From positions 210,304,001 through 210,368,000 of the forward strand of contig OZ024740.1 of the NCBI GenBank assembly GCA_964016885.1: DNA of 64,000 bases. Reading direction: 5' to 3'. The notes under the pieces are model-generated. The model saw only the letters and a program-made list of their open reading frames with translations, did no database searches and was not told where the DNA came from. Positions 17,521-53,117 of the stretch are shown here, piece by piece. A program made the translations under genes and the position numbers. The first letter of the stretch is position 1; each line of letters starts with the position of its first letter. This DNA comes from Eledone cirrhosa (Eukaryota).

Positions 17521-18285
17521 CAAAATTAAAATGAATTTAATCTAAATCAAAATTATTGGTGTCATGCCAGAAAGGCATGCACCATATCACCCGTAAAATA
17601 AGCTCTAAGATTCTAATGAATAGGTCCGAGCATTTTATAACAACTAGAAATTGATTAACATATAAATAAACATATGAAACAATCACAGGGGATAATTTTT
17701 ACAAGTGTGTAACCACACATAGCTAGGTAGGTAACTAAATAAAGTTAACTAGAACTTCAAACATTTTACGGGTGATATGGCGCATGCCTTTCTGGCATGA
17801 CACCCATCATTTTGATTTAGATTAAATTCATTTTGATTTATCATAATTTTGGATATAGATATGTAAATACGGCTCCTTAATTGTAGAGCTAACTCTGTTG
17901 AAAGGACTTGACTGCTGTTTCTAGTTGTCGATAACCCTATTCACGCCACTGGGACGAAGCTGGTATGATGTGTGTATTTTTAGTAGATACAGCACGTGTT
18001 ACTGGCCAGTCGCTGATTTGAACTTAATGCGTAAACACAGATCGCTAGACTTCTTCCTTGTTGAGAATCCAAGTACCGGCCTCCGTCGTTTACCAATCGA
18101 TTAATTGGTGAAATATATTTCTTTAATAGAATATATACAGGGAAGATTAATCATATTATAAGGTATCTATTTTTGAAGTTCTAGTTAACTTTATTTAGTT
18201 ACCTACCTAGCTATGTGTGCTTGCACACTTGTAAAAATTATCCCCTGTGATTGTTTATTTATATGTTAATCAATTTCTAGTTGTT
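17521..18285 (+). mobile_element. HHR element with circularly permuted inverted arm (~560-nt unit)
   Basis: 17521-17598 inverts ~17763-17840 and 17636-17760 inverts ~18171-18288. Confidence 0.8.
18053..18145 (+). ncRNA. HHR, U3-A8 core (TTGAGAA)
   Basis: CTTCCTTG-TTGAGAA-TCCAA..TTGGT-GAAA-hairpin stem III-TA-CAGGGAAG; 8-bp stem I. Confidence 0.7.
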
Positions 18286-19096
18286 ATATATATATATATA
18301 TATATACATATATATATATATATATACATATATATATATATATATATATATATATATATATATATATGTGTGTGTGTGTGTGTGTGTGTGTGTGTGTGTG
18401 TGTGTGTGTGTGTGTGTGTGTGTGTGTGTGTGTGTTTATCCCAAGTTCAATCGGAGTTAACCACAGTAAGTAAGATAATCAATGCATAGCAGAGTATAAA
18501 TATTTAATATAGAAATGGCTTCTAGAGTCGGCTTTCTTGATGATTTCCTCCGAATGAAAAACAGTTCTAGTCCAGTAGAAGCCATTTCTATATTGAATAT
18601 ATATATATATATATATATATATATTTATATGTGTGTGTGTGTGTGTGTATTACAATTGTTTCGAGGTGTGTGTGTGTGCAGTAAACCGAAGTAGATTTAT
18701 GTTTAAATATATTATTGTTTCAGATTGTTACATTTTATTGATTTCTGTGTCACAATTATATATTGATAATAGTTTAATAACAGCGAAAACTATCGAAGAA
18801 TACCCATTTGAAACTGATTACATCGATACCTTTTGGTGTGAAAACGTGAGATATGCCACAAAATTCCTCCTACACGAATATATATATATATATATGAGAG
18901 AGAGAGAGAATACTCGAAAAGAGTGAAAAACAAAAAAAAAACTGCGAGAGGTACTCCGTTGCTTCATTTGATAATATATATATATATATATATATATATG
19001 TATGTGTTTCTGTGTTTGAATATACAAATATGCATTGCTGTCTATGCTTTCTATTGATTATCATGCAATATTTGTCACAAAGAGAATTTTTAAAGG

Positions 19097-19785
19097 TCTC
19101 ATATATACATAAAGATGAGAAAAATTATTTCCAAGGATCAACTTTTGAAAACAACGTGGAACGATCTTAACCGAATCAACTTTTTTTAAACGTTTGTAAT
19201 TTCAAATTTTGTTTTGTTCCCACGAATCACCCAGGAATTAGAAATAATTTTAACGTGACCCAAGAAGGCGAAAAGAAACTATCATTTAAAATCTATATAT
19301 TTTAAAAAATATTAGTTTAGGTAGAGAAAGAGAGAGAGACATTATCTAATGTATTCTTGTGGGTCAACACTTGAACATCTGCTGTAAACTTGATACTTGT
19401 AGTAGTCATAAATCCCACGCTGTGTCGTGTCTTCTTTTATTACATATTTAGCAGGAAGGAAGGCTGCAAGTGAAGCACAGTGAAGAGGGAACTTAACACC
19501 CAAAGATAATATTTTGATAACGACTACATACTGCTGTACACTGAGAAAAGTTGCAGAAGTTTTTATGCGCTATGAAGTCATCTGTGTGCTGAGAAACATT
19601 TGAACCTAAGGAGAACATGACGATGAAATACAAAGCACAAGGCACTACCTCTCTTCCCATTGTCTCTCACTTACGCCCTTTCTTTTTTGTTTTCTTTCTA
19701 ATGTATACATATGAGTGACTGAATTTATTTTCACGCAAACATGTATATAAATTTAGTGTCTAGTTTACCAGGTGCACCCACCTAG
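19097..19785 (+). mobile_element. Possible non-autonomous Helitron
   Basis: TC..ATATATACATAAA 5' end and GGTGCACC..CTAG|T 3' end. Confidence 0.35.
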
Positions 19786-20628
19786 TATTTAGAAGGAATT
19801 CTATTCGCTCTCCCAAGCAGTTTAAATACGGCAAAGCTTACAAAATGTCAGAAAATATTAACGAGGTTAATTTGAAATAACATATTGTATGTACTAACGT
19901 GCGCCGTAGTGTAGGAGTAAGAACATTTCAGGTAGACAAGCTTTTTCGACACAATTTCGATCCTATATTGTGGCTTAATCGTCTTACTAACATTACACAT
20001 GATTTTGAAATAAAAATTCATGAATGAAACAGACTTCTCCTTTTCTTTAAAACAGAGAGACCCTCTAAGTACGGAAGAAATCAATTTTGCTGATATAATG
20101 ACACTATTATAGGTTGTGATAATGAAAGAAACCATTATTTCTAGAGGCTATGGCGTACATGGTAAAGGTAAGCTCTAGTTGATCTGAATTGGTGTTTTAT
20201 TTTGGACTCCTGGATAGTGTTATTTCATTTCAGTGGCTCCCCACCTTCACAGTTCGTTTACAGTGTTACGCGACATAAACAAACATAAATGTTTACCACC
20301 ATCAACAATATTCCAGAAACCGATAATCACTCCCTACCAATTTGTTTTATTCTATAACAAATACCGAGGTGTTTTTAATCCGACACTCTAACGACTTTGC
20401 TAATTCGCCGCCTTATAAAGTAGAAACTGCACAGTAAAATGTTTCTTACCCGCTTTAGAGATCTAGAATTAATGGTGTTTGTTGTTAACATTATAGTGTC
20501 TATAATGTATTAGTAATAATCCACTTCGATAAACCGATCTTATCTATGAGGAAACTAACAATTAAGCTCAATTATTGTATAACACGATTAATACACCGAA
20601 ATAGAAATATCCATTAGCATCTGAAATA

Positions 20629-20815
20629 CGAGGGTCAGCTGAAAGGTTCATAGGCTGACTATGCTAGAGCTGTGAAAGCTTGCAAGCATTAATTTTAACT
20701 CTTCTGATAAATAACTGTATATTTTCTTTCCAGGGACTATGTTGGAAAATAAACCTCATTTAATCATTCCATGAGAGTATTTTGGTCAGCCTATGAAACT
20801 TTCAGTCGACCCTCG
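20629..20815. mobile_element. Mariner-type MITE
   Basis: TIR CGAGGGTCAGCTGAAAGGTTCATAGGCTGAC, TA flanks; diverged copy at 59460-59657. Confidence 0.85.
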
Positions 20816-21027
20816 TAAGTCTGTTACCAATTGGCAGTAGAGCGTCGGGCAAAATGATTTGCGGTATATAGTTTATGTATTTGGTTTGGAACATTCTTCA
20901 TGTGGAATCGTGTGTTGAAACAGATACTGTTATATTTGGGGATAGCCAATTTTGGCAATTTTGGCTATAAACGTACCACAGAAAAGTAAGATGGAAGAAA
21001 CGGATTGCGACCAAAAAGAAGATCAAA

Positions 21028-52320: not shown

Positions 52321-52620
52321 TCTATATATCTAAAACAGAGAATGTCTGTCTGTCTGTCAGCTCACTAAAACTCGAGAACCACCCAACCGATTGTTTTCAA
52401 ACTTTACACATGTAATACTTATGGTCCTATGAGTGTTTTGAGCAAAGAAAATTTCAAATTTCAATGCCCTAGGGATCGCATTAGGCGATTTAGCGATCTC
52501 TCTCTAAAATTCTTAGTCTTTCTCTTTACATAGATATAACGTTGTGCCCTTATAATAACTGTCTGTATGTCTGACTGTCTGCATTACGACATTATGACGC
52601 GGTTTGTGTGCGTATATATG
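52321..52620 (+). mobile_element. Helitron-type non-autonomous 5' end
   Basis: TCTATATATCTAAAA..GAATGTCTGTCTGTCTGTC..CAACCGATT. Confidence 0.55.
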
Positions 52621-52699
52621 TATATATAGTATATGTAAATATATAGTGTGTAACGTTTTTCGAAATATTTACTTCTGCGTTCACAGATTGATTTTTTTT

Positions 52700-52750
52700 A
52701 GTTTCAGAAGATCCCGTTAAGGGTGAAAGCAGCGATTCTTTGCTTAAACT
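52700..52750 (+). ncRNA. HHR, U4A core, third copy
   Basis: Same motif as 48668-48718. Confidence 0.8.
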
Positions 52751-53079
52751 TTTATCTGTTATTTTAATATATATATATATATATATATATATATATATAT
52801 ATATATATATATATATATATATATATATATATATATATATGTATATATATATATATATATATATGTGTGTGTATATATATATATATATATATATATATAT
52901 ATATATATATATATATATATATATATATATTTAAAAGAATAGAGGTGTAACACACGAGTTATGATATATTGGTAAACGGAAAAGAAAATGCTGACAAATT
53001 GTTCACAGTGAAAAATAGTTTAATTAGGAATAAGTGAAAATTAGTAATAGTATTGGTTAGTATTCAGTTTTGGTTTTAA

Positions 53080-53117
53080 GTTTTACCGGTTGCGCATTTC
53101 TAATGCTTCTCAAAAAT
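53080..53117 (-). ncRNA. Possible HHR, U3-A8 core with GCAA instead of GAAA
   Basis: TTT-TTGAGAA-GCATTAGAAATGC-GCAA-CCGG-TA-AAAC. Confidence 0.45.

What the first reader, a model, noticed from the sequence alone, without database searches (positions are those of the whole stretch)
18053..53117. Recurrent U3-A8 compensatory HHR cores
Four unrelated motifs (18053, 24887, 29502, 53080) have TTGAGAA, TCGAAAA, TTGAAAA and TTGAGAA instead of CTGANGA. Known: C3 pairs with G8 in the active hammerhead and a U3-A8 swap restores that pair. Repeated double change argues for selection on catalysis rather than decay, and canonical searches would miss these.
Basis: partly seen in the sequence, partly recalled or inferred. 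Interest (0 to 1): 0.75.

Follow-up and report, generated by a model that had tools for sequence, protein, structure and literature searches.

The report
Penelope-type hammerheads with U-A core pair
Three of the four motifs have the shape of the small hammerhead RNAs that likely mark the ends of Penelope-like jumping genes, with one core base pair swapped from C-G to U-A; that swap is already published, the fourth motif is doubtful, and whether any of them still cuts itself is untested.

Summary
All four heptamers are present: TTGAGAA at 18061 (+), TCGAAAA at 24922 (-), TTGAAAA at 29544 (-) and TTGAGAA at 53113 (-).

Motifs 1 and 3 score far above shuffles. Motif 4 is weak alone but belongs to an abundant dispersed family. 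Motif 2 is at chance level.

The window also holds 23 C3-G8 hammerhead-like motifs in 11 families. All 27 lie within 255 nt upstream of a (TA)n tract; two C3-G8 families sit downstream of remnants of a Penelope-type GIY-YIG endonuclease gene.

Motifs 1-3 were not tested this way.

U3-A8 is known: Perreault 2011 reported it in nature, and Cervera and De la Pena 2014 reported about 1,300 copies in Schistosoma Penelope-like elements, including the same UUGAAAA core. This scan also noted it in seven findings on other genomes.

One extra oddity: motif 4's family also appears fixed for GCAA instead of GAAA (A13C). Selection on catalysis is plausible but unshown. Verdict: a new member of a known kind.

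The parts
18052..18146 (+). Motif 1: type I hammerhead-like motif with U3-A8 core (TTGAGAA 18061-18067, GAAA 18110-18113, predicted cut after 18137), 9-bp stem I, long stem III and irregular stem II opening with U.U
17530..18285 (.). (TA)n-bounded insertion holding motif 1, with internal inverted repeats (17701-17764 against 18169-18232; 17558-17599 against 17763-17804), the arrangement described for Penelope-like insertions
   Evidence: PMC8557442 passages
24887..24928 (-). Motif 2: doubtful or decayed hammerhead-like motif (TCGAAAA 24922-24916; U3-A8 plus U4C, broken stem II, CCGA loop III, 6-bp stem I)
   Evidence: chance-level score; 71 nt from (TA)n
29502..29549 (-). Motif 3: minimal dimer-type hammerhead motif, TTGAAAA 29544-29538, G10.1-C11.1 stem II, GAAA, CCGG palindrome, UC site, weak stem I
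53081..53116 (-). Motif 4: minimal dimer-type hammerhead motif, TTGAGAA 53113-53107 (family reads A at position 7), 5-bp stem II, GCAA (A13C) 53093-53090, CCGG palindrome, UA site, 3-bp stem I
52935..53570 (-). Copy of an abundant dispersed repeat carrying motif 4; many other copies end in (TA)n at 52964 and some run on beyond 53568, so this copy is likely 5'-truncated
   Evidence: 4416 contigs laid in X1, 10025 reads in X9; loose ends at 52964 and 53568
35361..35684 (+). Context: C-terminal remnant of a Penelope-type GIY-YIG endonuclease, on the same strand as and 1.4 kb upstream of the C3-G8 hammerhead at 37083-37132
   Evidence: (tblastn E 2e-12)
5958..6101 (-). Context: short endonuclease C-terminal remnant, on the same strand as and upstream of the U4C, C3-G8 hammerhead at 4361-4399
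   Evidence: E 0.001
46117..47406 (-). Context: 5'-truncated Penelope-like ORF (late RT region, Cys linker, GIY-YIG); source of the homologue set, not shown to belong to any U3-A8 element
   Evidence: domain reading partly from recalled motifs

Best explanation
Motifs 1, 3 and 4 are hammerhead-shaped RNA motifs with a U3-A8 core that likely sit at the 3' ends of truncated Penelope-like retrotransposon copies, where they would cut the element's transcript, with U3-A8 predicted to stand in for the usual C3-G8 pair. Shown: the motifs, their excess over chance (1 and 3), their position just upstream of (TA)n, the joint change at positions 3 and 8, and the family-level state of U3-A8 in motif 4. 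Inferred: the link to Penelope-like elements (no ORF remnant in these three insertions), that motifs 3 and 4 work as dimers through the CCGG palindrome while motif 1 could fold alone, and that the swap arose by two transitions through a U3.G8 wobble and was then inherited by whole element lineages. The genomic copies themselves are likely inert relics. Motif 2 is either a badly decayed member or chance.
For: Scan with positions 3 and 8 free: at score 10 or more, 18 C-G, 2 U-A and no other pair, against 0.04, 0.21 and 2.4 expected; at score 9 or more no C-A or U-G single mutant.

23 of 23 C-G motifs and 4 of 4 reader motifs lie within 255 nt upstream of (TA)6+, against 19% of random sites within 250 nt and 1 of 7 other low-scoring U-A candidates. 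(TA)n targeting and inverted 5'-truncated copies are described for Penelope-like elements (PMC8557442).

GIY-YIG remnants lie on the same strand upstream of two C-G families.

Lay on motif 4: position 7 differs from the window in 99.8% of X1 depth; positions 3 and 8 are not among the 40 rows shown. X5 record 12 is fully accounted for without them, X7's A>G and T>C places lie elsewhere, and a loose-end consensus of 1044 X9 reads spells UUGAAAA.

The same core is printed for S. mansoni Cercyon elements, whose S. japonicum relative has CUGAAGA, and a U3.G8 form is printed for Saccoglossus (supplement of PMC4209133). Two of 120 metagenome pattern hits (L026, L080) have the same U3-A8, GAAA, CCGG anatomy with both stems.
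Against: No RT or endonuclease remnant was found in the four U3-A8 insertions (Pfam 0 of 24 frames below E 0.01; no tblastn hit).

The active fold is not the predicted lowest-energy fold for motifs 1-4, and the CCGG-paired dimer was predicted only for motif 4 (several canonical controls behave the same).

Motif 4's family appears fixed for A13C and has a 3-bp A-U stem I; A13 changes are reported to cost 10-100 fold (PMC4075628).

In one full pairwise mutant library only the G3-C8 swap rescued activity in this region (PMC9901934).

104 of 144 difference rows were not shown, so minority C3 or G8 alleles are not excluded. At score 6 or more there are 3 C-A and 1 U-G hits (0.89 and 1.18 expected).
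Confidence: 0.8

Rival explanations
1. The U3-A8 families are dead ribozymes that were copied passively: an ancestral hammerhead drifted under A/T-biased mutation, and the master copies spread without needing cleavage.
For: Motif 4's family appears fixed for A13C; U4A and U4C are each shared by 3 copies of other families; Naiad Penelope-like elements spread without canonical hammerheads (PMC8557442); minimal motifs cleave poorly in vitro (PMC4209133).
Against: Drift predicts more single than double mutants; none of 15 families in the window has C3.A8 or U3.G8 (Fisher p 0.003-0.013 for 3 or 2 U-A families). In one search only 1 of the 27 shown difference rows between 52956 and 53234 falls in the 62 nt around motif 4 (about 6 expected by hand count), and that one is the window's private change at the free position 7.
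Confidence: 0.3
2. The four motifs are private double mutants of canonical families, or chance matches in AT-rich DNA.
For: U-A-class matches are the commonest chance class here (2.41 per shuffled window at score 6 or more); motifs 2 and 4 score in that zone. Families of motifs 1-3 were not read.
Against: Motifs 1 and 3 far exceed shuffles; motif 4 is U3-A8 across its family under three organism labels; all four sit near (TA)n like the true motifs.
Confidence: 0.07
3. The motifs belong to tandem non-LTR retrozymes or host-recruited regulatory ribozymes rather than to Penelope-like ends.
For: Motif 1 has a long stem III and could fold as a monomer; non-LTR retrozymes carry type I hammerheads (bioRxiv 10.64898/2026.07.22.740005).
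Against: Each motif is single, not in a tandem array; the surroundings are microsatellite-bounded insertions; that preprint itself derives retrozymes from Penelope-like elements.
Confidence: 0.08

Closest known systems
U3-A8 minimal hammerheads of Cercyon Penelope-like elements in Schistosoma mansoni (Cervera and De la Pena 2014, PMC4209133; about 1,300 hits)
   Same: Type I minimal architecture, palindromic positions after GAAA, U3-A8 covariation, identical UUGAAAA heptamer (S. mansoni 4 in Fig. S3), mostly single dispersed copies.
   Different: Different host (AT-rich animal, octopus-like by recalled repeats); CCGG loop III; no extra base after A9 in motifs 3 and 4; motif 4's family adds A13C; motif 1 has a long stem III and an irregular stem II.
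Natural hammerhead core variants of Perreault et al. 2011 (PMC3088659)
   Same: U3-A8 covariation and a U10.1.U11.1 mismatch at the base of stem II are both described there.
   Different: An A13C variant is not named in the section read (section 8); the figure and supplements were not seen.
Short-stem-III dimeric hammerheads of Penelope-like elements (Lunse, Weinberg and Breaker, RNA Biol, PMC5785218)
   Same: By its title (seen in a reference list): small Penelope-associated variants that cleave as dimers.
   Different: Paper not held; whether it lists U3-A8 or A13C could not be checked.

Membership tests
Type I hammerhead ribozyme | Core boxes N3-U4-G5-A6-N7-N8-A9 and G12-A13-A14-A15.1, U16.1-H17, with positions 3 and 8 able to pair | tested here: met
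   Motifs 1 and 3 fully. Motif 4 departs at A13 and motif 2 at U4.
Type I hammerhead ribozyme | Three stems around the core, stem I open-ended | tested here: inconclusive
   Motif 1 has all three; motifs 3 and 4 have stem II, a palindromic stem III and only 2-4 pairs in stem I; motif 2 lacks a sound stem II.
Type I hammerhead ribozyme | Match to an Rfam hammerhead model | tested here: not met
   No hammerhead hit at E up to 10 for motifs 1, 3, 4, nor for a canonical control at 45852; uninformative for minimal motifs. Motif 2 was not scanned alone.
Type I hammerhead ribozyme | Site-specific self-cleavage after H17 | not testable with these tools
   Needs an assay.
Minimal hammerheads of metazoan Penelope-like elements | Palindromic positions 15.2-16.2 and loop 3, G10.1-C11.1 | tested here: met
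   Motifs 3 and 4 (CCGG; G-C). Not met by motif 1 (long stem III, U.U) or motif 2 (CCGA, U.U).
Minimal hammerheads of metazoan Penelope-like elements | Occurs as a multi-copy consensus family | tested here: met
   Motif 4 only; 1 of 4 motifs tested.
Minimal hammerheads of metazoan Penelope-like elements | Lies in the terminal repeat downstream of an RT plus GIY-YIG ORF | tested here: inconclusive
   Shown for two C3-G8 families in the window; 0 of 4 U3-A8 insertions keep an ORF remnant. Shared (TA)n-proximal position and inverted structure only.
Non-LTR retrozymes | Tandem repeats with a hammerhead in each unit | tested here: not met
   Self-comparison shows no tandem copy of any of the four motifs.

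The most novel reading that the evidence does not exclude
The abundant motif-4 family carries a triple-variant hammerhead core (U3, A8, C13) that is conserved across subfamilies and species and still cleaves as a dimer, meaning that A13, treated as invariant, is replaceable in a U3-A8 background; with the U4C and U4A families next to it, this genome would be a natural mutant library of the hammerhead core.
Probability: 0.15. Interest if true: 0.55.

Novelty: new member of a known kind. Interest (0 to 1): 0.22.

Why it matters
The U3-A8 swap itself is published, so this adds a host and three examples. The practical value is for annotation: descriptors fixed on CUGANGA would miss 3-4 of the 15 hammerhead-like families in this window. 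If the C13 family cleaves, it would widen the known tolerance of the core. If it does not, it is a clean case of a Penelope-type family spreading with a dead ribozyme, which bears on the open question of whether these elements need their hammerheads.

Tried and rejected
Rfam on the whole window: only microsatellite-driven miRNA matches among the 150 of 277 rows shown. Local Rfam scans found no hammerhead, control included.

No genome is held, so no genome-wide family alignment was possible. The repeat finder was swamped by (TA)n. The first descriptor was too strict and found only motif 4.

Pfam on 30 and then 20 frames found no RT or GIY-YIG hit in the window itself, only a Tc1/mariner remnant. 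The Penelope reading rests on tblastn with 5 unnamed homologues, 2 of which have weak GIY-YIG hits below Pfam's cut-off.

Metagenome scan for the motif-4 family: 0 hits. General U3-A8 plus CCGG pattern: 120 loci from 11 of 64 parts of the collection, nearly all chance. 8 had stem II of 4 or more pairs, only 2 of those also had stem I, and none of the GCAA hits had both.

No RNA holder was listed for the motif-4 stretch; this is not evidence on expression.

Other U-A candidates (33926, 34602, 35971, 49063, 51275, 59942, 62950) were set aside as chance-level; 6 of 7 are far from (TA)n. Reading GCAA as an inserted C was rejected because it loses A15.1-U16.1.

Przybilski and Hammann 2007 (PMC1986816) and Lunse et al. 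(PMC5785218) are not held. Paper searches for hammerhead plus octopus, C3U plus G8A, A13C and A13, A14, G12 found no report of cephalopod U3-A8 or natural A13C families. The library is partial, so this does not show absence from print.

Full report
Setting. The window is AT-rich animal DNA (GC 0.19-0.40 per 2 kb) full of (TA)n, (CA)n and dispersed repeats. The repeats look like octopus repeats to me; that label is recalled and comes from no call. No genome is held.

Observation. All four heptamers are present. I wrote a type I hammerhead descriptor that leaves positions 3 and 8 free, allows one other core deviation and scores the three stems, and ran it on the window and on 238 locally dinucleotide-shuffled copies. 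At score 10 or more there are 18 C3-G8 hits (0.04 expected), 2 U3-A8 hits (0.21 expected), no C-A, no U-G and no other pair (2.25 expected). The two U-A hits are motif 1 (17.2) and motif 3 (12.6). Motif 4 scores 7.7 and motif 2 scores 6.2, both inside the chance zone (1.48 and 2.41 U-A hits per shuffle at 7 and 6). At score 6 or more the counts are 23 C-G, 9 U-A, 3 C-A, 1 U-G and 16 other, against 0.58, 2.41, 0.89, 1.18 and 18.85. An earlier, stricter scan gave 15 C-G and 4 U-A against 0.03 and 0.45 over 40 shuffles and missed motif 2.

Context. Of random sites 19% are within 250 nt, and only 1 of the 7 other low-scoring U-A candidates is. Five homologues of the broken ORF at 46117-47406 (2 of 5 with weak GIY-YIG hits) map endonuclease remnants at 35361-35684 (+) and 5958-6101 (-), each on the same strand as and about 1.4-1.6 kb upstream of a C-G hammerhead, with an inverted partial copy on the 5' side. 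This is the arrangement described for Penelope-like elements (PMC8557442, passages). None of the four U3-A8 insertions keeps an ORF remnant, so their Penelope link is inferred from position and anatomy.

Family test. Laying four runs on 52935-53690 at 80% likeness gave 4416 contigs in X1, 51 in X5, 4 in X7 and 10025 reads in X9, so this is an abundant dispersed family; many copies end in (TA)n at 52964. Position 7 of the core (53109) differs from the window in 99.8% of X1 depth, all of X5 and 967 of 985 X9 reads, so the family core is UUGAAAA. Positions 3 (53113) and 8 (53108) are not among the 40 of 144 rows shown. All ten differences of X5 record 12, which spans both, can be placed elsewhere; X7's three A>G and one T>C places are all listed elsewhere (53108 is near that contig's end); and a loose-end consensus of 1044 X9 reads spells the U3-A8 core. 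Minority C3 or G8 alleles in hidden rows are not excluded.

A13C. The window's GCAA is apparently not decay either. Restoring A13 would need G>T at 53092. X1 and X5 each have exactly three G>T places and all three are listed elsewhere; X5 record 9, a diverged subfamily, is unchanged there. For X9 five G>T places are hidden, so it cannot be judged. This is my deduction from the tables, not a direct row. The 62 nt around the motif hold 1 of the 27 shown rows between 52956 and 53234 (about 6 expected by hand count), which hints at conservation, but hidden rows and anchoring of alignments on the motif weaken this.

Independence. The four insertions share no flank similarity and form four singleton families beside 11 C-G families. 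A 2x2 test of joint change gives p 0.013, 0.003 or 0.0007 for 2, 3 or 4 independent U-A families, and 0.08 for a single origin. Motifs 2-4 share a CCG(G/A) loop III, seen in only 1 of the 11 C-G families (49455), so one ancestral swap is plausible.

Mechanism. Established: C3 pairs with G8 in the active fold (PMC3884650, passages). Minimal animal motifs pair their palindromic stem III between two copies and cleave weakly in vitro; their proposed role is to process the element's transcript (PMC4209133, parts 1-2 of 4 of the text and parts 1-2 of 3 of the supplement). Inferred: U3-A8 is two transitions away from C3-G8 through a U.G wobble, a state printed for Saccoglossus in that supplement, which would explain why nature shows U-A although G-C rescued best in one mutant library, where other double mutants in this region had low activity (PMC9901934, passages). 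A13 changes are reported to cost 10-100 fold and C at position 4 has been seen before (PMC4075628, one passage). Folding gives the three-stem shape for motif 1 (z -3.83), but the core-open fold is 4 kcal/mol above the minimum and its stem II has competing registers; motifs 2-4 are no more stable than shuffles.

Known status. Perreault 2011 reported natural U3-A8 and the U10.1.U11.1 mismatch (PMC3088659, section 8 and passages). Cervera and De la Pena 2014 found about 1,300 U3-A8 motifs in S. mansoni and print UUGAAAA in a Cercyon element. The retrozyme preprint was read in part 1 of 5; PMC6765202 and PMC2837043 in passages; PMC12192606 and PMC2553840 gave nothing useful. Two key papers were not held, and the supplements of PMC3088659, which list inactive variants, were not seen; either could already contain A13C. 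Seven earlier findings of this scan describe U3-A8 Penelope-type hammerheads in other genomes; nothing was on record near this window or for the motif-4 sequence.

Verdict. Real for motifs 1, 3 and 4, doubtful for motif 2; a published variant in a further host; catalysis untested. The one open oddity is the family-level C13 in motif 4. Interest 0.22.

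Noticed in passing
window 1267-55461: 23 C3-G8 hammerhead-like motifs in 11 families in 64 kb, about one hammerhead-like motif per 2.4 kb with the U-A ones; unusually dense if typical of the genome.
   Followed up: partly
window 4361-4399 (-), 6126-6164 (+), 29984-30022 (-): Family with U4C core (CCGAAGA) in 3 of 3 copies, linked to an endonuclease remnant at 5958-6101.
   Followed up: partly
window 32488-32528 (-), 48673-48713 (+), 52705-52745 (+): Family with U4A core (CAGAAGA), a hairpin stem III and short stem II in 3 of 3 copies.
   Followed up: no
window 8156-8207 (-), 55193-55242 (-), 55412-55461 (+), 25549-25627 (-), 1543-1612 (-), 2124-2193 (+): Hammerhead-like motifs with long, irregular stem II (31-60 nt) that opens with a mismatch or wobble instead of G10.1-C11.1.
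   Followed up: no
window 53090-53093 (-): GCAA in place of GAAA appears fixed in the motif-4 family in two runs with different organism labels.
   Followed up: partly
window 46117-47406 (-): 429-codon open remnant of a Penelope-like ORF with an Asn-rich repeat insertion, flanked by inverted copies of a short hammerhead-bearing element.
   Followed up: partly
window 26173-26922 (+): Tc1/mariner-type transposase remnant (DDE_3, HTH_Tnp_Tc3_2).
   Followed up: no
window 14128-14986, 56627-57350, 11410-11588, 21892-22006, 55757-55946: Many copies, some nested or tandem, of one short interspersed repeat family without a hammerhead.
   Followed up: no
L026:151-185 (-), L080:151-181 (+): U3-A8, GAAA, CCGG minimal hammerhead motifs with both stems in two AT-rich metagenome contigs.
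   Followed up: partly
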